64,000 nucleotides of DNA from Candidatus Woesearchaeota archaeon (GTDB lineage: Archaea; Nanobdellota; Nanobdellia; Woesearchaeales; UBA9642). The notes under the pieces were generated by a model. The model did not search any database, was not told the DNA's origin, and saw only the letters and a program-made list of their open reading frames with translations. This document shows positions 5,833 through 46,409 of this stretch, one piece after another (the first letter of the stretch is position 1; each line of letters starts with the position of its first letter). The stretch lies in NCBI GenBank assembly GCA_041658255.1, contig JBBAAQ010000005.1:1544-65543 (forward strand), written 5' to 3'. Both the position numbers and the translations under genes were made by a program.

Positions 5833-5919
5833 AATTTTTTAGGAAACAGTGTTTGCCTGTTCCTACCTCCGTGTTTTTTAATAATTGTTAGTCTATATTG
5901 ATTATAATAAATAAAAAAA

Positions 5920-9962: not shown

Positions 9963-10118
9963 ATGGATAACATTGAAATTATCAATATCCGGCTTTCTTC
10001 TGAATTATTAAAAAAAGTAGATGAACTTATCCGAGAAGGATCCTATTCTTCACGCAGTGAAGTCATCCGTGAACTCTGCCGCAACTATGTATTGGAGGAA
10101 CGCTACAAAGATGAATAA
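9963..10118 (+). CDS. ribbon-helix-helix (CopG/NikR-type) DNA-binding protein, 51 aa
   Basis: MDNIEIINIRLSSELLKKVDELIREGSYSSRSEVIRELCRNYVLEERYKDE shows the classic RHH pattern (beta strand, LxxxD, SRSEhIR). It is below the size cutoff of the ORF track. Confidence 0.7.
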   Translation: MDNIEIINIRLSSELLKKVDELIREGSYSSRSEVIRELCRNYVLEERYKDE

Positions 10119-10464
10119 TACTCCTGCAGCAAAAAACTCTGTACGGCAAAAAAAAGATGCAGTAGTATCTGTTCGCATGCCGAAAGGATTAGTGCAAGAA
10201 TTAAGGGATCTCCAAAAGATAAATCACTTCATGGACATTTCTGATGAAATACGATTCGTGATCCGAAAATATTGCTTACCGAAAAATCTCACCCAAGAAC
10301 GATCACAGAAATCACTCGAAGAAAAACAAAAACTCATCACCGATCTTGACAAAATCTTGCGTGAACTCAAAACCGATGCATCATCCTACGAAGAAAGATT
10401 GCACGAACTTAAAAATATGGATACAAAGAGTGGAGATACTAATCATCGCGATAACGCGCAGTAA
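10111..10464 (+). CDS. second RHH-like protein with a coiled-coil tail
   Basis: VSVRMPKGLVQELRDLQKINHFMDISDEIRFVIRKY is RHH-like. Its start overlaps the upstream stop (ATGAATAA). The track start at 10021 overlaps the first RHH gene in another frame. Confidence 0.6.
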   Translation: MNNTPAAKNSVRQKKDAVVSVRMPKGLVQELRDLQKINHFMDISDEIRFVIRKYCLPKNLTQERSQKSLEEKQKLITDLDKILRELKTDASSYEERLHELKNMDTKSGDTNHRDNAQ

Positions 10465-10467
10465 CCT

Positions 10468-13400
10468 ATGAATACCATTAATACATCTGGACAAAGGATA
10501 GTCTCCTCGAGAGTTATTATACTCGTTGCGCTAGTTATTTTCATTGCGATTATGCCTATTGCATCTGCGCAGTATCTTACGATCACCACTCCTGATTCTC
10601 CAATAGATCTTAATGCAATTAATTATACGATTGCAACAAGTGAACTTAATATCTCAAATACACATTCGGAGTCTCTCGATGCGTCTGCCAATACGACGAC
10701 ATTACTAGACATCAATGATACATTGTTCATTGATTGTATGCTTACTATTAATGCAACCTTATTGTCAAATAATACCGACGCATTAAATATCTCGAACATC
10801 ACTACCCATTATTCCACTACATTCAATGTGACTGATGCGACACCATCGCTTCAGTATTCACAACAAATCTCGCCATCACTCGCTGACGGCTTACATCGCA
10901 TGATATTGAACTGTACGACGACGCTTTTCGAATTGAATACCACTACACTCATCATCACAAATTATATCATGGTGCCTTCCAATTTGAGTGATACTAATTC
11001 AAGTAGTAATAATAGTGGAAATTTCTCTATCATTGAAACAAATACGACAACAATCACTCAAACCAACACCACACAAGTCATCAATTCCGGAACACAAAAA
11101 AATGTTATTGTAGATACTGCAATGCCGATCATCACCATTATTACTCCACTAACGCAATCAATTAATTCCTCGTCGCTGCAAAATGTAACTCAAAATACAA
11201 ATTCCTCTTTGTATCTCTTGCCCTTTAATTTTACACTCACGGAAGGATCAGATAGTATTTGTCAACTTACGTTAAGCCCAATCCCTCCGGTAAATGGCTC
11301 TTTGCAGATTGTTAGTTTTTCAATACCACTCGATGCATCATCTCCCGAATTGAGTTCAGGACTCAAAACCACGACGATATCAACTTCATTCAATGTTACT
11401 GCAATAAATTACTCTTACATTCTTACGTGTACTGACCTGTTCAATCGAACACAATCAGCAAATAATACATTCAGTGTTACCCCTCTATTCTCCCCCACCT
11501 CCCCCGAGGTCCAACCATTCCTTTCTATCACTATGACAAAATCTGCGTATAATCTGGGAGAACTTGCGTATTATGATATTTTTGCCATAAATAATAGTAA
11601 TGTTTCAATAACGATTTGTCCGGTTGCTCAAGGATGGGTGCAATGCTATGCGACGCCAGAATTCAAAAATGATACCTTTCCCAAACATTATGCGATGCCG
11701 TATACGAATAAGACCGGGCAATACCTCGTCGAAACTGTGATGCGTTATAAAAATACTACGTTACATGCAAATACGACTTTTGAAGTAGTTAATAGTATCA
11801 GTGCAACTATTACTCCGCATAATACACATGCTGTTGCAGGAAATCTTGTGACGTTTAATGCAACCGCAAACGGGGGTATTGCGCCATACACGTATAAGTG
11901 GACGTTGTATGATGGGCAAACATTTAGTGGTTCTGGGGCATACAAAAACTTCACGAGCAGTGGAACATATCAAATCAATCTTACGGTTAATGATAGCGCA
12001 GGAAACAGTTATACTACCATAACATCAATAAAAATTCGTGAACTCTACCAACTCAAAATTATTACTTATGATAAAAAAACAGGGAGCAGAGCCCGTGATG
12101 TTCTCGTGCGCATTGATGATGCAGTGAATAAGACAACAAATCCTGATGGTGAAGTTGTTTTTAGTCTTGTTCAAGGAAAATATGATATCTATGCTTCAAA
12201 AGGTGATTATGGCGGGTTTCTGAGTAATGTTCTTGTTGATAAAAATATCACGGTTTCCATGAATCTTTCAATCGAAGACTATTTCCCGCCGAAGATTACG
12301 CTTCTCACGAGTACTGGCGCAACATTTACGAAAGACACAATCAAACTCAAATTTAAAGCCGAGGATATGAGTGAGATGTATTGCGCGCTCTATACTGCAA
12401 AACTCGAAGATCATTGGTTCACACTCAAAGATGCAGGACCGAATTTAAAGTCGAATATTGAGTATACGTTTGATATTACTAATCTTGATTATGGATCCTA
12501 TAAATGGAAAATCGAATGTCGTGATGAAAGTAATAATAGCGCATATAGTGATGATTATAATTTTACTATTTCAAGTATTGATCTGCAGGCCGTAGCACAA
12601 AAAACTGCAACATCTTCTGATGATTTGAATGCTGCACTTGATCGGATAGATGCATTATCCGTGCAGGAAGCCGAGGTTGCGCAGATTTTAGGTATTAAAA
12701 ACGAATTGAAAGATATCCTTGAAAAAGTCAATAATCTCGATCGGGATATTCATAATCTTGCATTCCGCAGAGACCTTAATGAAAATGGGAAACTGTTATT
12801 ACAAAAGAATTATACTGATACGATCGAATACCTGAAATACCACACACCCATAAATGTCGAAGTCAAAGAGACTAAAACCTTTGTGAAATATGTTCGTGAT
12901 CCTGAACTTAAAATAATCCTTGATGAATATCGTTCCCTTAAAAATCTTAATATTAAAGAAAATCTCTTTTTTGAATCAACAAAAACTACGCAATCAAAAG
13001 CAATCATCTCAACTAAGGCGCGTGTCGTTGTTCTCTCCTATTTGAATGGTGAAAAAAAAGAGATTACACTTATCACGAAAGATATTCGTGTTGCAAAAAT
13101 TGAAGACCAGCAACTCTTCGCAAAATCGACGAGCATTACCTTTGTTGAACATATCCCTAAAACCGTTATCCCGACAATCAAATCAGTAACTGTTCTCAAT
13201 AAAGAATATACTGTTTTAAAAGAAGACCCGCTCCTCGAGTTTCCCGGATCAACAACAACAATATCGTACAGTATCGCCAGTGCAATAAATCTTGATACTA
13301 TCCAACAAATCGATACTGTGATCATTGATAAAAATGTTCAATCCACAAATCGCTTTACCGGCCTTGCAATTACTGATTTTAAGTTAATTCAAGAATCACT

Positions 13401-13911
13401 AAATGGAAAAGTACTCCTCGCTATTGTCATTTTTATTCTCATCCTCGTCTATGTTATCATTAGTTTTGATATTGCGAGTCGTATTAAGAATTTCTTTGGT
13501 ATGTTCTTTTATAAAAAGAAGACAAGTTATATCCGTGTGTTGATTAATGATTCTTCAGATTATTTACATGAAGGGGATAGTGCAAAAGCAGCGCTCATCT
13601 ATCACGAGATTAAACTAACGTATGAGAGTTCTCCTCCCCCAATTCAACGTAAAGTCTATGAAGAATGCTACGAACTCTGCAATAAGATTGATATTTCATA
13701 CTTTTATGAACTTTCAGCAACTATCCAAGCGCTTGCAAAAACAAATCATATTCAAGAATCTATTGATCAGTATGAAACATTAGAAAAAACATATGTAAAA
13801 ATTGATGATCGGTATAAGAAGGATCTTACTGAGAGACTTCGTTCCATATCGGCTCAAGTGAGTGCTCTGCAACAATTTACCACGGGTCCATGCAAAATAG
13901 ATGACGTGTAA
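10468..13911 (+). CDS. large bitopic surface protein, N-glycosylation-sequon rich, with a PKD domain and a cytoplasmic tail
   Basis: 1147 aa with an N-terminal signal/TM segment and dozens of NxS/T sequons. A PKD-like segment (VAGNLVTFNATANGGIAPYTYKWTLYDGQ...YQINLTVNDSAGN) lies at ~nt 11790-12040. A TM segment (VLLAIVIFILILVYVIISF) is followed by ~140 cytoplasmic residues. Confidence 0.85.
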   Translation: MNTINTSGQRIVSSRVIILVALVIFIAIMPIASAQYLTITTPDSPIDLNAINYTIATSELNISNTHSESLDASANTTTLLDINDTLFIDCMLTINATLLSNNTDALNISNITTHYSTTFNVTDATPSLQYSQQISPSLADGLHRMILNCTTTLFELNTTTLIITNYIMVPSNLSDTNSSSNNSGNFSIIETNTTTITQTNTTQVINSGTQKNVIVDTAMPIITIITPLTQSINSSSLQNVTQNTNSSLYLLPFNFTLTEGSDSICQLTLSPIPPVNGSLQIVSFSIPLDASSPELSSGLKTTTISTSFNVTAINYSYILTCTDLFNRTQSANNTFSVTPLFSPTSPEVQPFLSITMTKSAYNLGELAYYDIFAINNSNVSITICPVAQGWVQCYATPEFKNDTFPKHYAMPYTNKTGQYLVETVMRYKNTTLHANTTFEVVNSISATITPHNTHAVAGNLVTFNATANGGIAPYTYKWTLYDGQTFSGSGAYKNFTSSGTYQINLTVNDSAGNSYTTITSIKIRELYQLKIITYDKKTGSRARDVLVRIDDAVNKTTNPDGEVVFSLVQGKYDIYASKGDYGGFLSNVLVDKNITVSMNLSIEDYFPPKITLLTSTGATFTKDTIKLKFKAEDMSEMYCALYTAKLEDHWFTLKDAGPNLKSNIEYTFDITNLDYGSYKWKIECRDESNNSAYSDDYNFTISSIDLQAVAQKTATSSDDLNAALDRIDALSVQEAEVAQILGIKNELKDILEKVNNLDRDIHNLAFRRDLNENGKLLLQKNYTDTIEYLKYHTPINVEVKETKTFVKYVRDPELKIILDEYRSLKNLNIKENLFFESTKTTQSKAIISTKARVVVLSYLNGEKKEITLITKDIRVAKIEDQQLFAKSTSITFVEHIPKTVIPTIKSVTVLNKEYTVLKEDPLLEFPGSTTTISYSIASAINLDTIQQIDTVIIDKNVQSTNRFTGLAITDFKLIQESLNGKVLLAIVIFILILVYVIISFDIASRIKNFFGMFFYKKKTSYIRVLINDSSDYLHEGDSAKAALIYHEIKLTYESSPPPIQRKVYEECYELCNKIDISYFYELSATIQALAKTNHIQESIDQYETLEKTYVKIDDRYKKDLTERLRSISAQVSALQQFTTGPCKIDDV

Positions 13912-13938: not shown

Positions 13939-16900
13939 ATGAATAGAAAAATAGATGATATTATCGCAGGAAAAAAAGATCGAAAGAATATACTTATCAT
14001 AGTTCTTATGCTCTTTTTTCTCTCAGGGTCAATACTTGGGCTTATGCTAGTCACCAATTTTGTAGGGTTTGTGTATCAGAATTATCTTTCAGGGCAGGCA
14101 GGATATGTATATGAAACTATTTTGGATTACCGTGAATGTGCATATATGTGGTCGGGAGTTTATGGGTTCGCCGAGATGATAAAAGGTGAAAACGGTTGGA
14201 GTGAACAAATATCGTCTTGTAGTTTATCTGCTATTAATATTTCTTTTAATTGTTTAGCTCCGGGCATTGATCATGAGATCATGGCTTCACAGGTTCCTTC
14301 AAGTACAATTTCATGGGATACATTAAGACCTGCAACAACACTCGAAGTAGATCAGTATATGGGTGTAGATCCAACGAATAGCATGTCCGCAACAAAAACA
14401 TTCACACAACAACATGTCTATCAGATAGGGCAAAACACGTACACAGTCTTTGGAACTTCGACAAAAAAAACAGGTAATGCTACAGACATTAATTTTGATA
14501 TGGGCGTCTTAAGAGACGGGAATGGAAATCTTATTTTTATTTCTCACATTTTAAAAAATAGCACTTACGGGTTCGATAATCAGATCTATAATTACCAGAT
14601 GATCCTTCCTTTGCGTAATGGAACAAATCCCGTGTATTACTTCTTTTCTGATCCTTTTGATCAATGTTCTGAAGAAGGTAGTGGTGATGATTCAATCTAT
14701 GTTCCTCCAGTAACTGAAACTTTGACGCCAGAAACAATCGCTAGTGGTTCTACTGGTTCATTTGATTTTGCAAAATCCGAAACCCTGGGTGTAACTACGA
14801 TTGATGTTACAGTCAAAGACGGCACTACAGGAACATTTACAGTTGCTGATTCTGACAAACCAACAGGATCCCCACTTGCGATAGCATCAACAACAGGCGC
14901 AGTATACAATTACATTCAAATCACTTCAACGATTCCTAATAGTAATATTGCTACTGCAACAATAAAATTCAAGGTTCCCAAAACATGGTTTACTACAGAA
15001 AATATTGATTATACTACTATTGCCTTGAAAAAATTAGTGAATAATGTGTGGGTTGAATATGCGACAACATCTGCGAGTGAAGGTTCATCATACTATTATT
15101 ATGAAACAGTTGTATCCTCGTTTTCATCGTATGTGATTGTAGGAAAGTATACTAATGCAACAACACTGCCCGCAACACCCATTCTGGAGCAGCCAAAACG
15201 TATTGAAGGTATTGATTATGGTATCTCACTCTCAAAAATTGACCGCAAGATTGTCGTTGGAAACTTCTTACAGGAAATTGTTGCATTCTATAATTATAGG
15301 TCCGCTCCTGCAAATCTTAATTTTTCAATTGAGGGAGAAAATCTCAGTAAACTTATCAAACTCGATAAGAGTAGCATGATTATCTCTCCAAATACCAATG
15401 ATCAACTTACATTGACAATCTTTGGTGAAGGAACACCCGGTATCTATAATGGGTCGCTTGTTGTTGATGGTACATTACAGCAAAAAATTCCTATCCATAT
15501 TGAACTCCTCTCAAAAGATCGATTACCCGTCGAATCGATCCTTATCTTTACAGATATCTATAATCGGAAAATCTTTTCTTTTGATAAGTTAAAATTTAAG
15601 ACAGATCTTCGTAATATGCTCTCTGATCAATCATACCCTGTAACACTCCAATTTACCATTCAAGATATTACGGGTTCTACAGTCTGGTCTGATCAATCAA
15701 ATGTATTTGTGCAAACATCATTTTCATTATTAAAAACCGCAGAACTTCCAAAGAATCTTTCGAATGGTAATTATGTCTTGGGTATACGCGCGAATTATCT
15801 TGGAGTTTCAAGCAGTACAAGCGCAGTGTTTAGTGTCGTTTCACCATTCTATGATCAATATTTGTTCGGAATGAGTGTATGGATTTGGATTATCCTTTTA
15901 GTATTTTTCCTCCCAGTAATTCTTGTATCGTTTTTTATGCGAAAACATATCAAGAGTAAGAAACATTATGCGGCAAAAGTATCTTACACTGAATTACCGA
16001 AAGTCGGTCTAAAATCTATGTTTGTGGGAAAAATTGCAGAGACAGATCATAAGACATATTTTGACCTTGAACAATTCAAAATGCACACTATTGTTGCAGG
16101 AGCAACAGGTGGTGGTAAGTCGGTTGCTGCGCAAGTTATCGTCGAAGAAGCATTGATGAAGGGCATTGCAGTTATTGTTTTTGATCCCATCGCAGAATGG
16201 TCGGGAATGCTGCGCAAAGGAATTGATAAGAACATGTTGAAATTATATCCGCAATTCGGGCTTAAAGCAACAGATGCAAGATCGTTTAATGGTAATGTAC
16301 GGCAGATTACGAATGCACTCGAAGTGATTGATATTAAAAAATATATTAACCCCGGAGAAGTCCAAATTTTTACACTCAATAAACTTGATCCGGAAGATAT
16401 CGACATTTTTGTTGCCAATTCGATTCGTGAAATATTTCACGCTAATTTTCCTGAGAATCCTGAGATAAAACTTCTCATTGTTTACGATGAAGTACATCGT
16501 TTACTGCCAAAATTCAGTGGTTCTGGAGAAGGATTTTTACAAATTGAGCGCGGATGTCGTGAGTTTCGTAAGTGGGGTATCGGTATGTTATTGATTTCGC
16601 AGGTCCTTGCAGATTTTGTCGGACAAATCAAAGCAAACATCAATACGGAAATTCAGATGCGTACGCGTGATGAAGGAGACATTGATCGCATTAAGGCAAA
16701 ATATGGTACTGATGTCCTTCAAGGTCTTGTCGAGGCAAGTGTGGGTTTTGGGATGGTTGAAAATCCGGCATATAATAATGGTCGACCCTATTTTGTATCG
16801 TTTCGTCCGCTACTGCACAATACGCAACGTCTCTCAGATGAAGAACTCGAGAAATATGATAACTGTAATGAAATCATTGACGATCTCCACTATCAACTCG

Positions 16901-17622
16901 AACAATTAGATGCAGAAAAACAGGATGTCTTCGGTCTCAAACTCGAATTGAAGATTGCACTTGATAAAGTGAAATCTGGAAATTTTAATATGGTCGAAAT
17001 TTATTTACAAGAACTCGTTCCCCGTATTGAAAAGATATGGAAACATCTGAATAAGGCGCCAAAAAAATGTGAACTCAAACTCGTCGATATTGCAAGTTTA
17101 AAATCCGAATTGAAAAAAGCCGAGGAATCACGTAATGAATTCGAAAAAGAACAACACACAATGCAAGCGAAAGCAACTGATGATTTTGTGAAAATACTCG
17201 ATGAGGATAAATCAAAAAATACTATGTTGTTCACGCCACAAACTTCACTTGCTCCACAGACGTTATCTGTTTCATCAACATTACCGGTTTCACCAACACC
17301 TATCCGGCCTGAACAGTACTTTTATACTGTTGATCATCTCATACTGCAATCACTTCGTGAACTTTCAACATATCTTACGACCGGTAGTCCTGATGCATTC
17401 GCGTATCATGTGAACTCGACAAGAAATGATTTTGCAAATTGGATTAGGGGGGTGTTTTTATTCAATTCGCTTGCAGATACGATTCAAAACATTACCGATA
17501 AAAACGAGATGCATCAGCACTTAGAAGAATTTTTGCAAAAAATTCCTGCGCAAATTGATCCTGTAGTGGGATCTTCAACACATACGCCAGCGAATCCTTC
17601 TCTTCAAGAGTCTCTCGTCTAG
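13939..17622 (+). CDS. two-pass membrane protein: extracellular PGF-pre-PGF-like domain fused to a cytoplasmic HerA/FtsK/VirB4-class P-loop ATPase and a C-terminal NDFANW domain
   Basis: 1227 aa. TM1 is at ~aa 17-40. The extracellular part contains YNYIQI...ATIKFKVPKTWF...YYYYETVVSSFSSYVIVGK, which is PGF-pre-PGF-like. TM2 is at ~aa 645-668. Walker A GATGGGKS is at nt 16099-16122, Walker B is LLIVYDEVHRLL, and LLISQVLADF...NTEIQMR is HerA/DUF87-like. Confidence 0.85.
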   Translation: MNRKIDDIIAGKKDRKNILIIVLMLFFLSGSILGLMLVTNFVGFVYQNYLSGQAGYVYETILDYRECAYMWSGVYGFAEMIKGENGWSEQISSCSLSAINISFNCLAPGIDHEIMASQVPSSTISWDTLRPATTLEVDQYMGVDPTNSMSATKTFTQQHVYQIGQNTYTVFGTSTKKTGNATDINFDMGVLRDGNGNLIFISHILKNSTYGFDNQIYNYQMILPLRNGTNPVYYFFSDPFDQCSEEGSGDDSIYVPPVTETLTPETIASGSTGSFDFAKSETLGVTTIDVTVKDGTTGTFTVADSDKPTGSPLAIASTTGAVYNYIQITSTIPNSNIATATIKFKVPKTWFTTENIDYTTIALKKLVNNVWVEYATTSASEGSSYYYYETVVSSFSSYVIVGKYTNATTLPATPILEQPKRIEGIDYGISLSKIDRKIVVGNFLQEIVAFYNYRSAPANLNFSIEGENLSKLIKLDKSSMIISPNTNDQLTLTIFGEGTPGIYNGSLVVDGTLQQKIPIHIELLSKDRLPVESILIFTDIYNRKIFSFDKLKFKTDLRNMLSDQSYPVTLQFTIQDITGSTVWSDQSNVFVQTSFSLLKTAELPKNLSNGNYVLGIRANYLGVSSSTSAVFSVVSPFYDQYLFGMSVWIWIILLVFFLPVILVSFFMRKHIKSKKHYAAKVSYTELPKVGLKSMFVGKIAETDHKTYFDLEQFKMHTIVAGATGGGKSVAAQVIVEEALMKGIAVIVFDPIAEWSGMLRKGIDKNMLKLYPQFGLKATDARSFNGNVRQITNALEVIDIKKYINPGEVQIFTLNKLDPEDIDIFVANSIREIFHANFPENPEIKLLIVYDEVHRLLPKFSGSGEGFLQIERGCREFRKWGIGMLLISQVLADFVGQIKANINTEIQMRTRDEGDIDRIKAKYGTDVLQGLVEASVGFGMVENPAYNNGRPYFVSFRPLLHNTQRLSDEELEKYDNCNEIIDDLHYQLEQLDAEKQDVFGLKLELKIALDKVKSGNFNMVEIYLQELVPRIEKIWKHLNKAPKKCELKLVDIASLKSELKKAEESRNEFEKEQHTMQAKATDDFVKILDEDKSKNTMLFTPQTSLAPQTLSVSSTLPVSPTPIRPEQYFYTVDHLILQSLRELSTYLTTGSPDAFAYHVNSTRNDFANWIRGVFLFNSLADTIQNITDKNEMHQHLEEFLQKIPAQIDPVVGSSTHTPANPSLQESLV

Positions 17623-17702
17623 AAATTTATTGTCTGAGAATCGTAATCGCAACACGCTCCAGAACAAACGCAGAATGCAGCTGATTGAGAAAAAAATTAA
17701 AA

Positions 17703-19460
17703 ATGGTTCAAGGAAATCCAGTACAAAAGAGGGCGAGTAACACGCGTAATCAGGATAGTTATACGAATCATGCAATTTCAAATCATAATATCTCTGATCG
17801 TGTTATTTCTGATCGTGTTATTTCTGATCGTGTTATTTCTGATCGTGTTATCTCTGATCGTGTTATCTCTGATCGTGTTATCTCTGATCGTGTTATCTCT
17901 GATCGTGTTATCTCTGATCGTATCATCTCTCATCATGAGATTATTATTGTGACAAGAGTTATGATCATGTTTTTATGTTATATCTTAATCTCTAGCATCA
18001 GTATCCCACAATCCTCTGCGTTAAGTATGCAAACTGTGCAAAATTCTGCAGGGCTCTCTTCCAATAATCCTCTTCTTCCCATCACTGTTGCGACTGATGC
18101 AGAAGTTTTTTCAGTCGGAGATGTGGTTCATATTTATCTTTTTCCGAATGATCTCTTGTCGCAGAATAAGTCCCGCGAATCCCGGGATTCCTTGTTTGCA
18201 TCATTGTCCCTTGAGGTAACATTACAGGAGGACACGAGTTATTTATTAAAATATCTTGGAGCGCTCGATAATGATATTTCGTTTATTCCGCAGAAACCCG
18301 GAACCTATTATATTAAGGTATATTTGCCGAAGAGCTATTTAGACTATCAAAATATCGTGAATTCAAATATCGTGGATTCAAATACATTAGGTTCAATCAT
18401 AGTAGATTCTTCGCCTCCGGATTTAGGTTCCTCGATTGAAAAGACTTTTGTTGTGTACGCAGAGAGCGCTTTTGGCTGCAAGGAATATGCTGCCGGAGAG
18501 AATGTGGATATCTCCTTGAGGGACTATGCACCCTATCACGATAATGCAAGTTTGCCTGCGAGTGTTATGCTCATCTACAGCAACATAAATTATTCAGAAA
18601 AATTGCTTTACTCCCAGGAAATACGCGATGTCATATCCTATTCCTCTGCACGATTAGGAAAATATTCATTATATGCCGACGGGGATTATCTGGATTGCTT
18701 TGTTATTACGGACAAACCTGTTATCTCTCAATCAAATTCAGACGCTGCTGATGCAGGCACTCTCATTGTTGATGCTGGTGCTCTGAGTGTTGATTCAAGT
18801 ATTCCGGATTTAGATGCGCTGATCCAAAAAAGAGAAAAAAGGAATATGCCTGTTCTTGGGATATCACAAGCGCTCAATATTTCGAAAGATACAATCGCCG
18901 ATATGAACGCATTGAATAATGGACTCATCGCGGTAAGGATCTTGAAAAATAATTCGAATCTTACAGTCTTATCGGAGTTATTGGTTATCGATCTGAACAG
19001 ATCAATCGCTATACTGATTGGATTCAATGAGAGTGCTCCTGCTGATGATTTTACAATTGGCGTCAAGGATCAAGGTATTGTCTGGATATCTAAAAATCAT
19101 GAGACGCTCTATCTTTTTGATACGCAAACTGCAACACATATTTCTCGACGAGTTTTACCCTATAATGTCTCCAAAGGAGAATTAGGGACAGTACTATTTT
19201 TGAATACTTCTCTCACCAATGAAACTGGTAGGACTGAACTGCCGATAGATTTTGCATGGGATGTAGAGTTTGACAATCAACAATTTTATTTTTATAATCC
19301 ACAATTCGGTCAAACTTTTTCAGATGACGATATGAAAGTCAAGGAAGCATTCAGAAAACTCATGGATATGGACCAGATTCTCAGACCGCAGGATATTGCA
19401 CACCTCGATCTTGAAATCGACAGGGATTTTGTTAATGCTGATGAGATGAGCACCACATGA
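17703..19460 (+). CDS. bitopic surface protein with an N-terminal cytoplasmic ISDRV pentapeptide repeat array
   Basis: The ATG at 17703 is in frame with the track's TTG at 17685. It has 8 ISDRV units plus 2 degenerate units, then a TM segment (VMIMFLCYILISSISI), then ~480 extracellular residues with no recognised family. Confidence 0.75.
   Translation: MVQGNPVQKRASNTRNQDSYTNHAISNHNISDRVISDRVISDRVISDRVISDRVISDRVISDRVISDRVISDRIISHHEIIIVTRVMIMFLCYILISSISIPQSSALSMQTVQNSAGLSSNNPLLPITVATDAEVFSVGDVVHIYLFPNDLLSQNKSRESRDSLFASLSLEVTLQEDTSYLLKYLGALDNDISFIPQKPGTYYIKVYLPKSYLDYQNIVNSNIVDSNTLGSIIVDSSPPDLGSSIEKTFVVYAESAFGCKEYAAGENVDISLRDYAPYHDNASLPASVMLIYSNINYSEKLLYSQEIRDVISYSSARLGKYSLYADGDYLDCFVITDKPVISQSNSDAADAGTLIVDAGALSVDSSIPDLDALIQKREKRNMPVLGISQALNISKDTIADMNALNNGLIAVRILKNNSNLTVLSELLVIDLNRSIAILIGFNESAPADDFTIGVKDQGIVWISKNHETLYLFDTQTATHISRRVLPYNVSKGELGTVLFLNTSLTNETGRTELPIDFAWDVEFDNQQFYFYNPQFGQTFSDDDMKVKEAFRKLMDMDQILRPQDIAHLDLEIDRDFVNADEMSTT
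17790..17924 (+). repeat. 15-bp in-frame tandem repeat, 9 units (ATYTCTGATCGTGTT)
   Basis: Read directly. Units 2-4 carry ATT and units 1 and 5-9 carry ATC. A tenth degenerate unit extends to 17939. Confidence 0.95.
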
Positions 19461-19503
19461 TGATTAAGATAAATGATGATTAAATAAATGATGATTAAGA
19501 TAA
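19457..19503 (+). repeat. three tandem copies of ATGATGATTAA(G)ATAA spanning the stop of one gene and the start of the next
   Basis: Copies at 19457-19472, 19473-19487 and 19488-19503. Only the third opens the 2513-aa frame; the first two are 8- and 4-codon mini-ORFs. Confidence 0.9.
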
Positions 19504-22500
19504 ATGGATTATGGAATGTGAAACAGTTCGTGCGTCTTGGATTCCTATTCTTAGTACTGGGCTTGTTCTGTATCTATTCTTCACCGGATGCTGCAGCCTC
19601 GATCAATGCAAGCGATTCACAATATCTTATCGCCATCGGGCCAGTTACTGGTTCAACTTCTGCGAATTACGTGTATCTCTCAATATTTAATCCTGCAACA
19701 TCCAACAATTCAGTCGTAATCAATTATTTATTTCTCCGGAACACCGCAGTCAATACTGCTACGTATCAGAAATTGACCCTGCGTCGTATCAATGCATCGT
19801 CAACAGGAACATTGATTGCACAATCAGATATCCCGAAAAAGAATACTAATTCAGCTAACGCTACAGTCGAGATACGCTATGCAGGACCCGCAGTGACTTA
19901 TCCCAATGGGGTCAATGCGCGGATCATCTCTGTTGTGGGTTCAGGAGCAGCAGGTTCATTAAATGGCTTTAAAGAATTAGTATTTAATGAGACAAATCCA
20001 CTTGTTCTCAGACCAGGCGAAGGAGTCGCACTTTATCAGGAAGCTGCCGGAAGTGCCAACCAGCGTGTCAATCTTCTTGTTGATTGGGAAGAAACAAACA
20101 CCACACCCCAACTCAAGAATGAATATATCATTGCCACACCCAAGGTCGCAATCGCTGCAACAGTCAATTATACTTATCACTCGTTCTTTAATCCTGCAGC
20201 ATCAGGAAAGACTTATCTTGTCAAGAGAATCGATATTAATGTTGATTGTAATGGCGCTGCAGTCTATACTAATACTATGGCGCTGCGCCGAATTACTGCG
20301 GCAAGCGTAGGAACACTCATTACACAATCAGATATTCCGAAAAAAGATACTGCAACAAATGTCAGCACTGCTGAATTGCGCAACACTAACCCGACAGTCA
20401 CACATGTCGGGACTGCAAACGCGCGATTACGCCAAGTAACTCCCTGCGGCGCAGCAAACCAGCATGGTGCATATAAAGAAACACTTTTTGAGTCCAGCGA
20501 GGAGCCACTCATTATTAAGCAGGGCGAAGGACTCGCATTAATATCAGAAACTGCAGGGGATGTCAGTCAACTTGTCGGTACGCAAATGGAATGGGAAGAG
20601 ATATCAAACACCACTACACCCCTGACAGAAAACGAATTGATGTATGCATCCCCTCCAGTCACGACCACTGCAACAATCAATTATACTTATCATTCGATAT
20701 TCAATCCTGTCGGCAGCGGCAAGGTAGCAATTATTAAGCGTATTGAAATACGTATGGACGCGGGAACTGCCAACAAAGTCTATCAGCCTGTCAATCTCCA
20801 GCGCATTAATGCCGCAAGTGCAGGAACACTTATTACACAATCAGATATCATGAAAAAAAATTCTGCGACAAATACGACAGTCATGGAATTACGGTATAAT
20901 GGTCCGACAGTAACATTAAATGGATCGACGGATGCAGCTATTCTTACCATAACTGGACCGGGAGCTGTCGGCCAATTGCGCTCGCGTAAAGAATTAATAT
21001 TCAATAATGAGAAGATTGTCCTGCGACCTGGAGAGGGGCTTGCAATGTATTCTGAAACAGCAGGTGGTGCGAGCCAGTATGCAAAACTTTATGTTGACTG
21101 GGAAGAAGAGCCACTTGCAGCAGTACCTGCAGCGCAAAACGAGTATGCGCTTAATGTTGGGTCGTTCAATGGTGTGACAACTTCAGGATATAATTATACT
21201 TCATTCTTTAATCCTGCACTGAGTAATGTGACTGCGATTGTAACTAAGATATTTATGGATATTGATACTGCGGGAACAGCAGTCTATATCCCGTTCACCA
21301 TTAGGCGCATAACAAGCGCATCAGGTGGAACATCCATTGCACAATCAGATATTCCAAAAAAGAATACTGGTTCAAATGTAAGTATTATGGAATGGCGTTA
21401 TGCTAATCCTACAGTGGCATATGTCGGATCAAGTAATGCGCGTATTGAAAGTGTGCAAAGTCCAGGCGCTTTAGGGACGGCTGTTGCACCACAATTGACC
21501 GGATGGCAAGACGATATATTCACAAAGGAACCCTATGTGATAAAACCCGGCGAAGGATTGACACTCTATCAGGAAGCAGCAGGAGATGTGGATTTTCGGG
21601 TGAAGTTCATGCTCGTATGGAAAGAAATATCTTACGCACTCACTCCGGCAACAGAAGGAAACTACATGACATCCATTGGGCCAGTGAGTGGATCGCTCAC
21701 TAATAATTATGTCTATGCAACAATCTATAATCCCCTGAATTCAAGCCGCGATTATATTATGAGGCGAATTGATGTTCGATCAGACAGGGTCGGCGCCTTG
21801 ACTGCTCCTGGTTACATTCCTGTTTCATTGCAACGGATTAATTCATCGAGCGGCGGGACACTTATGTCGTTGTCAGATATCCTGCCAAAGAATACTGCGA
21901 CAAATACTTCAACTGCTGAACTGCGCTCTGCAGGACCGACGGTAAATTTTGTCGGTACCACTGCTTCTGATATGATTGGTGTGATGGCGCCTGGCGCAGT
22001 TGGGCAGGAATATGGAAAGATAGAAATCATATCTGGTAAAGGTGATGAAATTATTCTCCATCCTGGTGAGGGACTCGCAATGTACCAGCAAGGCACTGCA
22101 GGAGACGCCAACATGCGTTACCGCATGGATCTTGTATGGAATGAATCAATCATCGTAACAAATACTGCTCCTACTTTTACGCAGTCTATTGGTGATCAAA
22201 GTATTTCTCATTCTGTGAATTTATCATTACAAGTAAATTGTACTGATTTAGATTTCGATACTATTCTTTATTTTGATAATACTTCTTTATTTGATATTAA
22301 TTCTTCTGGATATATTTTTGATAATCCGACTCAGGCAGAAGCCGGAGTATACAACATTTCCATAACTTGCGGCGATGGTGTGGCAAATACTTCAAGTAGT
22401 TTCTTATATACGATAACAAATAGTGCTCCAACAACTCCTACAACACCTTCTATTACTTCTGGTACGTATCGTAGTGACTCTTTTGTTTCATCGTCGGGTA

Positions 22501-27488: not shown

Positions 27489-28427
27489 ATGACTGATCAT
27501 GCGCTACAATCAAAGAAGGATGATGATGTTGCATATGATAAAGATATAAAATCAGGTGCGATCCCTAATCCTCCACGAACACTTCCAGAACTCGCAAAAA
27601 ATCTTTATGATACAAAAAATCTTTATGATACCTCGAATAATTCGTATAATTCTTCAGGAACAGCACCCCTAAATTCTTCTGCGCAAACCATGCAAAAACC
27701 TTTAAGCGCGCCAATGTCGGCCCCGTTACAACCAGTCGATATGTCTTTTATTCGCCAATCGAATACTGCACCGTCGGTCTCGCCCGCAGTATCATCTATG
27801 GCAACACAAGAACAACTGATCGTGCCGCAAGGAGCTATACGATCTTCATCGATGAATGCAGGAAATGCAATGATTTATTCTCAGCAATATCCTTCTCAAA
27901 ATCATCCTCAAAATCCTCTTCAACCCATTATTATTCAGATGCCGTCACCATCTGCGCCACAAATATATATAGTGCCGTATCCCGTGTCCAGTAGTTCAAC
28001 AGGAAATCCGATAGGGGCTAATGAGAGTACACTTCAATTAATCCAGCTTATTGCGCAGATATTAAAATTATCTCTTCCGGGTGATATTTCTATGATCACT
28101 TCCGCTCCTAATTTTTTTTCAAATCCTGTGGCGTCGACAAATCCCGCACCTCTCGTAGATAAAGCCGCAGTGCAAACAATATTTCTTGATGATCTCTCAA
28201 AATTCTTTTATTTGCGCGACGGTGTTGTGTTACGTTCACTTCCTCAACTTGCGTATCATCTTCGTGCAATGTCTGATGAGGAATTTTCATATCACGTTAC
28301 AAACGAAAAAAATGATTTTGCGAATTGGGTAAGAGACGTTTTTGCACTTCCCGAATTTGCAGAAGAAATTTCTCGTATACAAAGTAAGAATAAACTTGCA
28401 GATTTCTTGATGAGAACAATTTTTTAG
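27489..28427 (+). CDS. low-complexity (S/P/Q-rich) protein with a C-terminal NDFANW domain
   Basis: 312 aa. The C-terminus FFYLRDGVVLRSLPQLAYHLRAMSDEEFSYHVTNEKNDFANWVRDVF is homologous to the C-terminus of the 13939..17622 ATPase. Confidence 0.7.
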   Translation: MTDHALQSKKDDDVAYDKDIKSGAIPNPPRTLPELAKNLYDTKNLYDTSNNSYNSSGTAPLNSSAQTMQKPLSAPMSAPLQPVDMSFIRQSNTAPSVSPAVSSMATQEQLIVPQGAIRSSSMNAGNAMIYSQQYPSQNHPQNPLQPIIIQMPSPSAPQIYIVPYPVSSSSTGNPIGANESTLQLIQLIAQILKLSLPGDISMITSAPNFFSNPVASTNPAPLVDKAAVQTIFLDDLSKFFYLRDGVVLRSLPQLAYHLRAMSDEEFSYHVTNEKNDFANWVRDVFALPEFAEEISRIQSKNKLADFLMRTIF

Positions 28428-46364: not shown

Positions 46365-46409
46365 TAGTATGATCGTTGTTCAGTAAAGAGGATAAAGAGG
46401 TGAGTTGTT

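What the first reader, a model, noticed from the sequence alone, without database searches (positions are those of the whole stretch)
13939..17622. HerA/FtsK-class ATPase fused to an extracellular PGF-pre-PGF-like domain through two TM helices
HerA/FtsK/VirB4-type ATPases are normally soluble or carry short membrane anchors. Here ~600 residues lie between two predicted TM segments (aa ~17-40 and ~645-668). That stretch contains a clear archaeal surface-protein module (YNYIQI...ATIKFKVPKTWF...YYYYETVVSSFSSYVIVGK).

The cytoplasmic part has Walker A GATGGGKS (16099-16122), Walker B LLIVYDEVH and the SQ...R region of HerA/DUF87 proteins. A Ser/Pro/Thr linker and a separate C-terminal domain follow.

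The topology physically couples an outside sensor or adhesion domain to an inside translocase-type motor. The closest conceptual analogue is the membrane VirB4/HerA-like ATPases of archaeal DNA-exchange systems, but with a different architecture.
Basis: partly seen in the sequence, partly recalled or inferred. Interest (0 to 1): 0.8.

Follow-up and report, generated by a model that had tools for sequence, protein, structure and literature searches.

The report
Membrane HerA-type ATPase with extracellular domain
This gene from a tiny symbiotic-type archaeon (Woesearchaeota) fuses an outside-facing surface domain to an inside-facing DNA-pump-like motor; it belongs to a large family, not described in any paper I could search, that sits in a conserved surface-protein gene cluster and may link contact with other cells to transport across the membrane.

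Summary
Window 13939-17622 is one uninterrupted 1227-aa ORF: N-in TM1 (aa 18-38), a ~600-aa ectodomain, TM2 (aa 647-667), a HerA-clade P-loop ATPase with intact catalytic motifs, an S/P/T linker and a DUF5752-like end domain.

It is not an artefact or a one-off. An independent assembly holds a 98%-identical protein. The ATPase domain defines a family of 367 clusters (50% identity) and at least 584 loci in species-representative genomes, essentially all Woesearchaeota/Nanoarchaeota/Pacearchaeota. A TM helix always lies 51-69 aa before Walker A. The ectodomain ranges from ~150 to ~5600 aa.

The PGF-pre-PGF module (aa ~245-410) is a swapped-in cassette; relatives carry a CarboxypepD_reg-like module there.

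The gene sits in a conserved operon: two RHH proteins, a PKD single-pass protein, the ATPase, DUF5752 adaptors, a coiled-coil protein and a giant surface protein. No channel, pilin, nuclease or relaxase is present.

Function is inferred. Most likely it is the motor and anchor of a DPANN-specific envelope-spanning machine, with DNA the favoured substrate by homology (HerA, CedB/CedD, VirB4, TraD). I found no published description.

The parts
9963..10118 (+). RHH1: 51-aa ribbon-helix-helix (CopG-type) protein, first gene of the cluster
   Evidence: Pfam RHH_1 E=9.7e-10. A homologue occupies the same position in 56 of 80 related loci.
10111..10464 (+). RHH2: second RHH-like small protein with a coiled-coil tail. 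The listed ORF runs 10021-10464; the start at 10111 is inferred from relatives.
   Evidence: 66% identical to L004 6401-6652 and 64% to L001 6444-6704. Present in 56 of 80 loci.
10468..13911 (+). PKD-domain single-pass membrane protein (1147 aa): N-terminal signal/anchor, sequon-rich ectodomain, TM at aa 982-1000, ~147-aa cytoplasmic tail
   Evidence: PKD_4 E=4.3e-9. TMs. 48% identical over full length to L004 6649-9927. Found directly upstream of the ATPase in 69 of 80 loci.
13939..17622 (+). The finding: 1227-aa bitopic HerA-clade ATPase (whole ORF)
13990..14052 (+). TM1 (aa 18-38), preceded by a basic cytoplasmic N-terminus (MNRKIDDI...KKDRKN)
   Evidence: KD hydropathy 2.74; 6 K/R before it and 0 after. 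The N-terminal motif and TM are conserved in relatives.
14059..14679 (+). Ectodomain N-module (aa 41-247): conserved, Cys-containing beta-rich domain with no family assignment
   Evidence: AF2 pLDDT ~90. C105 and C243 are invariant. No Pfam or PDB-sequence match. Present in 62 of 80 loci, sometimes as a stand-alone secreted protein.
14680..15168 (+). Variable cassette (aa ~248-410) carrying the PGF-pre-PGF domain (TIGR04213 match aa 262-402 = 14722-15144)
   Evidence: TIGR04213 E=1.6e-19. Close to zero identity with the 33 aligned relatives, which have a CarboxypepD_reg-like module here. Found in 0 of 80 genome loci. 65% identical to the membrane-proximal domain of surface protein P0038.
15169..15873 (+). 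Ectodomain C-module (aa 411-645): two membrane-proximal beta-sandwich (Ig/PapD/FnIII-like) domains
   Evidence: AF2 pLDDT 80-94. Foldseek hits to RbmA, Caf1M/FimC and HYDIN PapD-like domains at E 1e-7 to 1e-11. Many invariant columns. Present in 78 of 80 loci and in several giant members.
15877..15939 (+). TM2 (aa 647-667), followed by a basic cytoplasmic stretch (RKHIKSKKH)
   Evidence: KD hydropathy 2.93; 6 K/R after it. A TM lies 51-69 aa upstream of Walker A in nearly all of 149 family representatives.
15979..17073 (+). HerA-clade P-loop ATPase domain (aa ~681-1045): Walker A 16099-16122, Walker B 16471-16497, Arg-finger motif REFRKWG 16558-16578, ISQV 16594-16605
   Evidence: Pfam DUF87/HerA_C. 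PDB profile search: HerA 4d2i at 2.3e-14. Foldseek: 4d2i at 1e-6, VirB4 1.7e-3, EccC 4e-3, FtsK 5e-3. Catalytic residues are invariant. Coordinates.
17074..17298 (+). Long helix plus disordered S/P/T-rich linker (aa 1046-1120; S/P/T run aa 1102-1126)
   Evidence: AF2 helix followed by a segment with pLDDT <50. This region is gapped or variable in relatives.
17299..17619 (+). C-terminal DUF5752-like helical domain (aa 1121-1227), a module shared with small cytoplasmic proteins of the system
   Evidence: Pfam DUF5752 E=4e-4, below the cut-off. A family HMM scores 1.3e-31. pLDDT ~90. Homologous to the N-termini of downstream small proteins in L001/L004/L005 and to the C-terminus of window g312.
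17685..19460 (+). g591: lineage-specific protein at the position where relatives encode DUF5752 and coiled-coil proteins. Its likely true start is M93 (17961), which gives a signal peptide MIMFLCYILISSISIPQSSA.
   Evidence: No homologue in 80 loci. Sequence and Met positions.
19488..27029 (+). Giant surface protein (2513 aa; signal peptide, Laminin_G_3, CARDB), last large gene of the cluster
   Evidence: Pfam hits. Relatives have 1250 to >7000-aa proteins with MG2, Big_13, LamG_3, DUF2341 and CARDB domains at the same position.
27489..28427 (+). g312: cytoplasmic protein with a low-complexity N-terminal part and a C-terminal DUF5752-like domain
   Evidence: Family HMM 2.5e-27. blastp matches to the ATPase C-terminus and to the small adaptor proteins.
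28847..29602 (+). g251: stand-alone secreted paralogue of the ectodomain N-module, ending in ...YYFYLELE
   Evidence: blastp to the ecto N-domain of relatives, E=1.7e-6. Aligns along its full length with the N-module and with stand-alone copies from L064, L068 and L083.

Best explanation
What it is (shown). The gene encodes a bitopic membrane protein of a Candidatus Woesearchaeota genome. A short basic N-terminus and the whole C-terminal half are cytoplasmic, and ~600 residues between the two TM helices are extracellular. The C-terminal half is a catalytically intact HerA-clade P-loop ATPase, a linker and a DUF5752-like docking domain.

It belongs to a large DPANN-restricted family. In that family the ATPase and its preceding TM helix are constant, while the ectodomain is modular and ranges from ~150 to ~5600 aa. 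The gene is embedded in a conserved chromosomal cluster: two RHH proteins, a PKD single-pass protein, the ATPase, DUF5752-domain proteins, a coiled-coil protein, sometimes a wHTH protein, and a giant adhesin-like surface protein.

How it most likely works (inferred).
- Like its relatives, the ATPase assembles into a hexameric ring held against the inner face of the membrane by TM2.
- The six ectodomains, together with the PKD protein, form the membrane-proximal base that holds the giant surface protein. In the giant family members that surface protein is fused in cis.
- DUF5752 modules on the ATPase tail and on small cytoplasmic proteins dock accessory factors to the ring.
- The ring uses ATP to thread a linear polymer at the site where the surface complex contacts another cell or substrate.
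- By homology with HerA, CedB/CedD, TdtA, VirB4, TraD and TraB, that polymer is most probably DNA, taken up or exchanged by an organism of a lineage thought to live on scavenged nucleotides.

The PGF-pre-PGF domain in this particular protein is an exchangeable spacer or adhesion cassette, not a defining part.
For: Architecture and topology.

ATPase:
- Motifs are intact and invariant.
- HerA-clade fold and profile: 4d2i 1e-6; 4d2i 2.3e-14; Thermococcus HerA 2e-13.
- Family members match the NCBIfam models CedD (18/18), HerA (18/18), TraC/VirB4 (18/18), TraD (17/18), TraB (9/18) and CedB (2/18). All of these are polymer, mostly DNA, translocation ATPases.
- CedB and CedD are TM-anchored HerA-clade ATPases required for DNA import. 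TdtA is a HerA-like DNA-donation ATPase (PMC11868833; PMC9905601).

Spread:
- Family size: 367 clusters at E<=1e-30.
- At least 584 loci in species-representative genomes, labelled Woesearchaeota, Nanoarchaeota or Pacearchaeota.
- The window itself is Woesearchaeota.

Operon and physical coupling:
- Conserved operon.
- Rosetta-stone evidence for physical coupling of the surface proteins with the motor: members of 2000-6253 aa carry the ATPase at the C-terminal end. The N-module is either fused or free. The DUF5752 module is shared between the ATPase tail and the small proteins.
- The coiled-coil partner is kept even next to the 4862-aa and 6253-aa giants.
- The cluster is chromosomal and lies next to housekeeping genes.

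Physiology: Pacearchaeota and Woesearchaeota are proposed to depend on scavenged nucleotides (abstract of PMC8204110).
Against: - No experiment or structure shows a hexamer, a pore or any substrate.
- Neither this cluster nor 80 relatives contain a polytopic channel protein (VirB6/CedA/ComEC-like), a pilin, a nuclease or a relaxase.
- The two TM helices are purely hydrophobic (1-2% polar residues) and TM1 is poorly conserved. They look like anchors rather than a conserved aqueous DNA channel.
- The HAS-barrel of true HerA and the VirB4-like N-domain of CedB/CedD are absent. Only ~50 aa separate TM2 from Walker A.
- All NCBIfam matches are far below their cut-offs, for example 34 bits against 800.
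- The RHH and wHTH proteins may simply be operon regulators.
- This window lacks the otherwise near-universal coiled-coil partner, so this copy may work differently or be incomplete.
Confidence: 0.4

Rival explanations
1. Protein-export or surface-assembly motor, analogous to type VII EssC/EccC or a type IV coupling protein. The membrane-tethered ring recognises cytoplasmic proteins through the DUF5752 or TPR tail and exports them, or it drives assembly or turnover of the PKD and giant-adhesin complex.
For: - The 2-TM N-in/C-in layout before an FtsK/HerA-superfamily ATPase is the layout of T4CPs and of EssC/EccC. EccC appears among the structural matches (4nh0, 4e-3), and TraD and DotL among the sequence matches.
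- The operon encodes several small cytoplasmic helical proteins that share a common domain (DUF5752-like) with the ATPase tail. This resembles a substrate or adaptor recognition arrangement.
- A large single-pass ectodomain partner (the PKD protein) recalls EsaA/YueB of T7SSb (own knowledge, not tested).
- No DNA-processing enzymes are present in the cluster.
Against: - The ATPase is HerA-clade, not FtsK-clade: HerA profile 2e-14 versus FtsK 8e-4.
- There is a single ATPase domain, not three.
- The giant and PKD proteins have ordinary N-terminal signal or anchor sequences and should use Sec.
- Cis-fusion of 2000-5600-aa ectodomains to the motor makes little sense for a catalytic exporter of those same proteins.
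- No WXG100-like or signal-bearing substrates were recognised.
Confidence: 0.2
2. Anchor and mechano-chemical coupler without a trans-membrane substrate. The protein fixes the giant adhesin complex to the membrane through its ectodomain. The cytoplasmic ring, with the coiled-coil protein as a membrane-associated scaffold, uses ATP to remodel, cluster or release the surface complex, or it ties the complex to the nucleoid. Signalling could run inside-out or outside-in.
For: - The most constant partner is a cytoplasmic coiled-coil protein with basic-aromatic ends (MxxFKKKK... ...FGFLKK). It is kept even beside the giant fusions.
- The TM helices look like plain anchors and the cluster has no channel component.
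- The downstream giant protein g2513 has no C-terminal anchor of its own, so it needs a membrane-bound partner.
- The ectodomain is modular and hypervariable, as expected for host-contact proteins.
Against: - No HerA/FtsK-superfamily ATPase is known to act as a pure signalling or scaffold-remodelling device (own knowledge).
- The extreme conservation of the whole ATPase, 45-72% identity between clusters with invariant catalytic and Arg-finger residues, fits a processive motor better than a switch.
- The coiled-coil protein gives only compositional matches to Rad50, SMC or keratin, so its role is unknown. It is absent from this window.
Confidence: 0.2
3. HerA-based anti-phage defence module, of the same kind as SIR2-HerA, DUF4297-HerA or mad8.
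For: PADLOC HerA models match the ATPase (best 1.6e-14), as does mad8 (3.3e-12). SIR2-HerA structures are among the best fold matches.
Against: - The matches cover only the generic ATPase core.
- No SIR2, DUF4297, NurA or other effector lies in this window's cluster, and no such family recurs across the 80 relatives.
- Known defence HerAs are soluble with a HAS-barrel (own knowledge); this protein is membrane-embedded with a glycosylated-type ectodomain.
- The gene is a conserved, syntenic chromosomal core gene rather than a patchy island gene.
Confidence: 0.04
4. Artefact: a frameshift or misassembly joining a surface-protein gene to a separate ATPase gene.
For: One relative (L067) has the ectodomain and the ATPase as two adjacent ORFs. 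The PGF-pre-PGF cassette has no counterpart in relatives.
Against: - An independent assembly gives the same 1227-aa protein at 98% identity.
- All flanking ectodomain parts, both TMs and the ATPase are collinear with about 35 full-length relatives.
- The cassette shows no GC anomaly: 37.1% versus 36-38% for its flanks.
- The architecture recurs in 94 or more representatives.
Confidence: 0.01

Closest known systems
CedB / CedD of the crenarchaeal Ced DNA-import system (and TedB)
   Same: Archaeal, membrane-anchored, HerA-clade ATPases that power DNA movement across the envelope during cell-cell contact (PMC11868833, PMC9905601). CedD is the NCBIfam model hit by all 18 sampled family members.
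   Different: - CedB/CedD have a TM anchor followed by a cytoplasmic VirB4-like N-domain. They have no large extracellular domain.
- They work with a polytopic VirB6-like channel (CedA/CedE) and a VirB2-like pilin (CedA1). None of these is present here.
- Scores are ~32-37 bits against a cut-off of 600.
- Different phylum.
HerA (HerA-NurA DNA end-resection helicase; also SIR2-HerA defence complexes)
   Same: Best sequence-profile and fold match for the ATPase core (4d2i, 9x1l, 8wiv). It shares Walker A and B, the R-E-x-R-K-x-G Arg-finger motif and the SQ motif.
   Different: - No HAS-barrel N-domain.
- No NurA, Mre11, Rad50, SIR2 or DUF4297 partner.
- Membrane-embedded with a 600-aa ectodomain.
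- C-terminal DUF5752 or TPR extensions.
Type IV coupling proteins (VirD4/TraD/TrwB/DotL) and Streptomyces TraB / FtsK-SpoIIIE
   Same: Hexameric FtsK-HerA-superfamily motors tethered by N-terminal TM helices (two in T4CPs, N-in/C-in) that deliver DNA or proteins to or through a membrane. Weak matches to TraD, DotL, TraB and FtsK.
   Different: - In T4CPs the loop between the two helices is tens of residues long. Here it is 150-5600 residues of folded surface domains.
- There is no all-alpha domain, no gamma domain and no T4SS partners.
- The ATPase is closer to HerA than to the FtsK/TraD clade.
Type VII secretion ATPases EssC/EccC
   Same: Two TM helices followed by a cytoplasmic FtsK-like ATPase. 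They work with single-pass partners that have large ectodomains and with small helical cytoplasmic proteins. EccC is a weak fold match.
   Different: - EssC/EccC have three tandem ATPase domains and N-terminal FHA/DUF domains.
- They are bacterial.
- Their substrates are WXG100/LXG proteins.
- They have no large extracellular loop.

Membership tests
FtsK-HerA superfamily of P-loop pumping ATPases | Walker A GxxGxGK[ST], Walker B hhhhDE, a trans-acting arginine in the R-x-x-R-K-x-G motif after Walker B, a conserved S/T-Q sensor strand, and a RecA-like fold | tested here: met
   All motifs are present at aa 721-728, 845-853, 874-880 and 886-889 and are invariant in the family. They align to HerA 4d2i. 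Foldseek gives 4d2i at 1e-6 with probability 1.00. The profile search gives 2.3e-14. Pfam DUF87 is above its gathering score.
HerA proper (HerA-NurA helicase, NCBIfam NF040937/NF040819) | N-terminal HAS-barrel domain preceding the ATPase | tested here: not met
   Only ~50 residues lie between TM2 (ends aa 667) and Walker A (aa 721). The DUF87 match begins at aa 696. The model shows only three short strands there.
HerA proper (HerA-NurA helicase, NCBIfam NF040937/NF040819) | Whole-protein score above the curated cut-off; operon with nurA, mre11 and rad50 | tested here: not met
   34 bits against a cut-off of 800, and 24 against 970. No such neighbours in the window or in 80 loci.
Ced/Ted DNA-import ATPases (CedB, CedD, TedB) | TM anchor plus HerA-clade ATPase | tested here: met
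   TM2 lies 53 aa before Walker A. The CedD model is hit by 18 of 18 members, best E=3.8e-13.
Ced/Ted DNA-import ATPases (CedB, CedD, TedB) | Cytoplasmic VirB4-like N-domain; co-occurrence with a VirB6-like polytopic channel (CedA/TedA) and a VirB2-like pilin (CedA1/TedC); score above the model cut-off | tested here: not met
   There is no cytoplasmic N-domain, because the N-terminal 600 aa are extracellular. No polytopic or pilin-like recurrent neighbour was found. The score is 32-37 bits against a cut-off of 600.
Type IV coupling proteins (VirD4/TraD/TrwB) | Two N-terminal TM helices (N-in, C-in) followed by the nucleotide-binding domain | tested here: met
   Met in form only: the loop is ~600 aa instead of a few tens.
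Type IV coupling proteins (VirD4/TraD/TrwB) | Membership by sequence, an all-alpha domain, and association with a T4SS and relaxase | tested here: not met
   SXT_TraD scores 28 bits against a cut-off of 366. TrwB scores E=0.27 against the PDB. There are no T4SS or relaxase genes.
Type VII secretion ATPase EssC/EccC | Three tandem FtsK-like ATPase domains after two TM helices | tested here: not met
   There is a single Walker A and a single ATPase domain. EccC is only a weak fold match at 4e-3.
PGF-pre-PGF domain proteins (TIGR04213) | Score above the model's trusted cut-off | tested here: met
   70.4 bits against 28, E=1.6e-19, aa 262-402 covering profile positions 11-153 of 153.
PGF-CTERM / archaeosortase A substrates | PGF-CTERM sorting signal (PGF motif, TM, basic tail) at the C-terminus after the pre-PGF domain | tested here: not met
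   The domain is internal. It is followed by 240 aa of ectodomain, TM2 and the ATPase. No PGF-CTERM model was reported for this protein by NCBIfam.
Known HerA-containing anti-phage systems (SIR2-HerA, DUF4297-HerA, MADS) | Adjacent effector or partner gene of the system | tested here: not met
   PADLOC hits only the ATPase core. The neighbours give no hit. None is recurrent in 80 loci.
Woesearchaeota/Nanoarchaeota '2TM-ectodomain-HerA' family (annotated only as DUF87 domain-containing protein) | TM helix 51-69 aa before Walker A; family signature peptides FDPT[AG]QW[ST]G and [AG]xREFRKWG; membrane-proximal tandem beta-sandwich (ectoC); upstream RHH-RHH-PKD genes | tested here: met
   One deviation: the first signature reads FDPIAEWSG in the window protein, a variant of the consensus.

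The most novel reading that the evidence does not exclude
The family is the core of a self-contained, DPANN-specific cell-to-cell conduit. Six subunits form a cytoplasmic HerA-type ring. Their ectodomains, from ~150 to ~5600 aa and either fused or supplied by the PKD and giant proteins, bundle into an extracellular stalk or tube that reaches a host or neighbouring cell. DNA, or another polymer, is pulled through this structure without any VirB6/ComEC-type channel or pilus. That would make it a previously unrecognised class of envelope-spanning translocation apparatus, and a molecular basis for material transfer in Woesearchaeota and Pacearchaeota.
Probability: 0.15. Interest if true: 0.92.

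Novelty: new variant of a known kind. Interest (0 to 1): 0.72.

Why it matters
DPANN archaea such as Woesearchaeota and Pacearchaeota have tiny genomes and lack much biosynthesis. They are thought to live attached to other cells and to scavenge nucleotides, yet the machinery that mediates contact and transfer is essentially unknown.

This family is a concrete candidate for that machinery:
- It is abundant: at least 584 loci in species-representative genomes.
- It is chromosomal and strongly conserved.
- A DNA-pump-type motor is covalently tied to hypervariable, adhesin-like surface domains.
- It sits in a fixed operon with giant surface proteins.

The candidate can be tested directly by biochemistry of the soluble ATPase domain, hexamer modelling, cryo-ET and proteomics of enrichment cultures.

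The family also extends the known architectural range of the FtsK-HerA superfamily. I know of no other member with a large folded extracellular domain between two TM helices, nor one placed at the C-terminus of 4000-6000-aa surface proteins.

For annotation, it shows that the label 'DUF87 domain-containing protein' hides a coherent multi-gene system.

Tried and rejected
1. Misassembly or frameshift: rejected.
2. Degenerate ATPase: rejected, since the motifs are invariant.
3. PGF-pre-PGF as the defining ectodomain: rejected. It is a cassette absent from all 80 related loci. Its closest copy (65% identity) is the membrane-proximal domain of an unrelated surface protein on a 43.8%-GC contig.
4. 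Mobile-element, plasmid or viral origin: no phage match, and only 25-30%-identical haloarchaeal megaplasmid DUF87 genes. The window and the relatives are chromosomal.
5. Defence system: only generic HerA hits.
6. Identity of the ecto N-module: no Pfam, NCBIfam or PDB-sequence match. Foldseek output for the ectodomain model was dominated by the tandem beta-sandwiches, so the N-module fold could not be classified.
7. Identity of the coiled-coil partner: only compositional Rad50, SMC, keratin and JetC matches.
8. A search for a hidden channel, nuclease, relaxase or pilin by unbiased clustering of all neighbouring ORFs found none.
9. A search of the window for the coiled-coil and wHTH partners with family HMMs found them absent.
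10. Literature: eight full-text searches and five papers read gave no description of this family. Iyer et al. 2004 (PMC521647) is not held and could not be checked.
I did not repeat it, since the scan does not cover archaeal promoters.

Full report
**1. The observation**

Window 13939-17622 (+) is one uninterrupted 1227-codon ORF. Kyte-Doolittle scanning gives two strong hydrophobic segments, aa 18-38 and aa 647-667, and nothing else of TM quality. The weaker peak at aa 729-751 is the beta-strand/helix following Walker A.

NCBIfam TIGR04213 (PGF-pre-PGF) matches aa 262-402 at E=1.6e-19, 70.4 bits against a cut-off of 28. Pfam DUF87 (45.3 bits against 23.2) and HerA_C match from aa 696.

Walker B (LLIVYDEVH), REFRKWG and ISQV align residue-for-residue with Walker B, the Arg-finger motif AREGRKFG and SQRP of S. 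solfataricus HerA.

**2. Not an artefact, not a singleton**

A protein from an independent ENA assembly (P0001) is 98% identical and also 1227 aa. About 35 further proteins of 1170-1580 aa align over 96-100% of the length at 42-58% identity. All have TM1 at about aa 20-40, TM2 at about aa 590-635, and Walker A about 70 aa after the start of TM2.

The EF-2 gene of the window (3652-5832, minus strand) is 100% identical to an NCBI 'Candidatus Woesearchaeota archaeon' protein on an 80.7-kb contig. The window also carries pyruvate kinase, PEP synthase, RFC and an Obg-like GTPase. The locus is therefore chromosomal DNA of a Woesearchaeote.

**3. Topology**

In this protein, 6 K/R precede TM1 and 0 follow it. 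One acidic residue and no basic residue precede TM2, and 6 K/R follow it. Nine N-x-S/T sequons lie between the helices, against two in the equally long C-terminal half.

Across 94 family members that have both helices:
- Sequon density is 2.07 versus 0.29 per 100 aa (higher outside in 93 of 94, Wilcoxon p=4e-17).
- K+R counts are 3.8/0.6 (in/out) at TM1 and 1.6/5.1 (out/in) at TM2 (p~1e-15).

The ecto N-module has invariant cysteines C105 and C243. Together with the domain types found in the middle region (PGF-pre-PGF, CarboxypepD_reg, Ig/PapD-like) and the need of a P-loop ATPase for cytoplasmic ATP, the N-in / ectodomain-out / C-in topology is well supported. No dedicated topology predictor was available.

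**4. Anatomy of the protein**

The family alignment (A1; per-bin identity) and two AF2 models divide the protein as follows:
- aa 1-17: basic tail with the conserved MNRKIDDI motif.
- aa 18-38: TM1.
- aa 41-247: conserved, Cys-containing beta-rich N-module (pLDDT ~90) with no Pfam, NCBIfam or PDB-sequence match.
- aa ~248-410: a cassette with essentially zero identity to relatives. It holds the PGF-pre-PGF domain and was not modelled (pLDDT <30).
- aa 411-645: two membrane-proximal beta-sandwich domains (pLDDT 80-94). Foldseek matches tandem FnIII/PapD/Ig-like proteins such as RbmA, Caf1M/FimC and the HYDIN PapD-like domain.
- aa 647-667: TM2.
- aa ~681-1045: the ATPase, with 60-99% column identity to relatives.
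- aa 1046-1120: a long helix and a disordered S/P/T linker.
- aa 1121-1227: a small helical DUF5752-like domain (pLDDT ~90). The Pfam hit, E=4e-4, is below the cut-off; a family HMM scores 1.3e-31.

Most relatives carry a CarboxypepD_reg-like module in place of the cassette, and TPR repeats after the DUF5752-like region. The PGF-pre-PGF cassette occurs in none of 80 related genome loci. Its best relative (65% identity over 147 aa) is the membrane-proximal domain of an unrelated 1167-aa surface protein. That protein lies on a 43.8%-GC contig where three consecutive surface proteins carry the domain. The cassette has no GC anomaly in the window.

**5. Classification of the ATPase**

- The single sequence against the PDB gives HerA 4d2i at 4e-7.
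- A profile of 18 diverse family members gives HerA 4d2i at 2.3e-14, Thermococcus HerA at 2e-13 and SIR2-associated HerAs at 1e-12. DotL (2e-4), FtsK (8e-4) and VirB4 (5e-3) are far weaker.
- Foldseek of the cytoplasmic model gives 4d2i at 1e-6, then SIR2-HerA and HerA-NurA, VirB4 at 1.7e-3, EccC at 4e-3 and FtsK at 5e-3.
- NCBIfam models matched by the 18 members: CedD 18/18, HerA 18/18, TraC 18/18, TraD 17/18, TraB 9/18, CedB 2/18. All are far below their curated cut-offs.

It is therefore a distinct family in the HerA/VirB4/Ced sector of the FtsK-HerA superfamily. It lacks the HAS-barrel of HerA and the VirB4-like N-domain of CedB/CedD, since only ~50 residues separate TM2 from Walker A.

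**6. Size and range of the family**

An exhaustive phmmer search with the ATPase domain against 1.84 billion representatives gave 1219 hits at E<=1e-3, 538 at <=1e-10 and 367 at <=1e-30. In the best 149, the ATPase domain starts anywhere from residue ~30 to ~5650 of proteins up to 6253 aa long. A TM helix lies 51-69 aa before Walker A in nearly all, and most complete sequences also have an N-terminal TM.

Among 94 sequences with both helices, ectodomain length is 146-4822 aa, median 573. Longer examples did not pass my TM threshold. These include P0082 (6253 aa, ATPase at 5646-6017) and P0089 (4862 aa, annotated 'DUF87 domain-containing protein [Candidatus Woesearchaeota archaeon]'). Giant ectodomains contain Laminin_G_3, NPCBM_assoc and similar beta-sandwich modules.

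A scan of one genome per GTDB species with two family signature peptides found at least 584 confirmed loci. The 80 best carry Woesearchaeota, Nanoarchaeota, Nanoarchaeia or Pacearchaeota labels. Some carry 'uncultured Methanosarcinales' or, once, 'Saccharibacteria' labels on automatically named bins, which I take to be mislabels. One MAG has two loci (L062, L076).

**7. Genomic context**

The window cluster is co-directional and tightly spaced:
- RHH1 (9963-10118; RHH_1 E=1e-9).
- RHH2 (~10111-10464).
- A 1147-aa PKD single-pass protein (10468-13911).
- The ATPase (13939-17622).
- g591 (17685-19460).
- A 2513-aa surface protein with Laminin_G_3 and CARDB (19488-27029).
- Further downstream: g312 with a DUF5752-like C-terminus, and g251, a stand-alone secreted copy of the ecto N-module.

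Across the 80 loci, the counts are RHH1 56, RHH2 56, PKD protein 69, coiled-coil protein 51, DUF5752-domain proteins 56 and wHTH protein 19. Many loci are truncated by contig ends. The order is almost invariant: RHH1, RHH2, PKD protein, ATPase, (DUF5752), coiled-coil, (DUF5752), (wHTH), giant protein.

Variants inform the model:
- A short form of the ATPase (~780 aa, ectoC plus ATPase only) goes with a longer PKD protein.
- The N-module can be free-standing.
- One locus (L067) splits the ectodomain and the ATPase into two ORFs.
- The 4862-aa and 6253-aa giants lack the RHH and PKD genes but keep the coiled-coil gene immediately downstream.

These fusions and fissions are Rosetta-stone evidence that the surface proteins, the ATPase and the cytoplasmic adaptors form one physical assembly.

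Unbiased clustering of all neighbouring ORFs revealed no additional recurrent partner. In particular there is no polytopic membrane protein, pilin, nuclease or relaxase. The coiled-coil protein has conserved basic-aromatic termini (MxxFKKKK... ...FGFLKK) and only compositional database matches. This window has neither the coiled-coil nor the wHTH gene. g591, which sits in their place, has no homologue in the 80 loci.

**8. Mechanism**

Shown:
- The architecture, the topology and the intact catalytic site.
- Membership in the HerA sector of the superfamily.
- The conserved operon and the modular ectodomain.

Inferred:
- The ATPase forms a ring at the membrane, as all structurally known relatives do.
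- The ectodomains, with the PKD protein, anchor the giant surface protein.
- DUF5752 modules dock accessory proteins.
- The ring translocates a polymer.

I favour DNA as the polymer (confidence 0.4 for the whole statement), for three reasons. Every characterised close relative handles DNA: HerA, CedB/CedD, TdtA, VirB4, TraD, TraB and FtsK (PMC11868833, PMC9905601). The operon encodes three small DNA-binding-type proteins. These lineages are proposed to depend on scavenged nucleotides (PMC8204110).

The main arguments against are the absence of any channel component and the plain hydrophobic, weakly conserved TM helices.

The rivals are:
- A T7SS/T4CP-like protein exporter (0.2).
- An anchor or mechano-chemical coupler working with the coiled-coil scaffold (0.2).
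- A defence module (0.04; only generic HerA matches).
- An artefact (0.01).

**9. Comparison and novelty**

Functionally, the nearest known things are TM-anchored HerA-clade DNA-import ATPases (CedB/CedD), and 2-TM coupling proteins and EssC-type ATPases. The protein fails the membership tests for each: no VirB4-like N-domain, no partner channel or pilin, a single ATPase domain, and scores far below the cut-offs.

I know of no FtsK-HerA-superfamily member with a large folded extracellular domain between its TM helices. I also know of none placed at the C-terminus of multi-thousand-residue surface proteins.

Eight full-text searches and five papers read gave no description of this family. No held paper contains DUF87 together with Woesearchaeota, and none contains DUF5752. 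The founding superfamily paper (Iyer et al. 2004) is not held, and subscription literature is not covered, so prior mention cannot be excluded. Database names are only 'DUF87 domain-containing protein', 'helicase HerA domain-containing protein' or 'tetratricopeptide repeat protein'.

I rate it a new variant of a known kind (a membrane-tethered FtsK/HerA-type motor). There is a 0.15 chance that it is the core of a categorically new cell-to-cell conduit.

**10. Verdict**

The significance is larger than the single gene, because this is one member of an abundant, conserved and apparently undescribed DPANN envelope system. It is also less specific than claimed, because the PGF-pre-PGF domain is incidental. 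Function remains inferred. Interest 0.72.

Noticed in passing
window 17789-17934: A 15-bp tandem repeat (TATCTCTGATCGTGT, 9.7 copies, 96% matches) lies between the stop of the ATPase gene and the probable true start of g591 (M93 at 17961, which gives a signal peptide). If read from the listed TTG start at 17685, it translates as (ISDRV)n. It could be a regulatory or phase-variable element upstream of a lineage-specific surface protein.
   Followed up: partly
window 28847-29602: g251 is a stand-alone secreted paralogue of the ATPase's N-terminal ectodomain module and ends in ...YYFYLELE. Similar free copies of 241-248 aa, ending in YYFYVELA, YYLYVELT or YWFYVEIA, occur next to short-form ATPases in L064, L068 and L083. 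The module has no Pfam or PDB-sequence match.
   Followed up: partly
window 27489-28427: g312 has a long low-complexity S/P/Q/N-rich N-terminal part and a C-terminal DUF5752-like domain homologous to the ATPase tail. In relatives, DUF5752-like modules sit at the N-termini of 2-3 small cytoplasmic proteins per locus, and in up to 3-4 copies in the ATPase tail of P0035.
   Followed up: partly
window 1-64000 (absence): The coiled-coil protein (~300-430 aa, termini MxxFKKKK... and ...FGFLKK) is the most constant partner of the family and is present even beside the 4862-aa and 6253-aa giants. It is absent from this 64-kb window, as is the wHTH protein. g591 occupies their position.
   Followed up: yes
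window 44049-48677: A type IV pilus/archaellum-type assembly ATPase (771 aa, T2SSE E=9e-14) is followed by a 755-aa protein with no family match. This is possibly a second surface-appendage system in the same genome region.
   Followed up: no
L086 10001-24589; L087 10001-28762: Giant family members of 4862 and 6253 aa have the HerA-type ATPase at the extreme C-terminus. They are chromosomal (next to gyrB, SRP54 and MCM) and lack the RHH and PKD genes, but are each followed directly by the coiled-coil gene.
   Followed up: partly
L067; L022 versus L021; many 'uncultured Methanosarcinales' loci (e.g. L008, L010, L018): In L067 the ectodomain and the ATPase are separate adjacent ORFs, either a real split or a sequencing frameshift. 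L022 is labelled Candidatus Saccharibacteria but has the same gene sizes as the Woesearchaeota locus L021, so it is probably mis-binned. The Methanosarcinales labels on auto-named bins also look wrong for this DPANN-type cluster.
   Followed up: no
L088 1-8794: Three consecutive surface-protein genes (341+, 1167 and 1311 aa) each carry a PGF-pre-PGF-like domain near the C-terminus. The middle one is the closest relative (65% identity) of the cassette in the window protein. The contig GC is 43.8% against 37.9% for the window.
   Followed up: partly
window 19457-19506: A 16-bp repeat (ATGATGATTAAGATAA, 3.2 copies) spans the end of g591 and the start codon region of the giant gene g2513.
   Followed up: no
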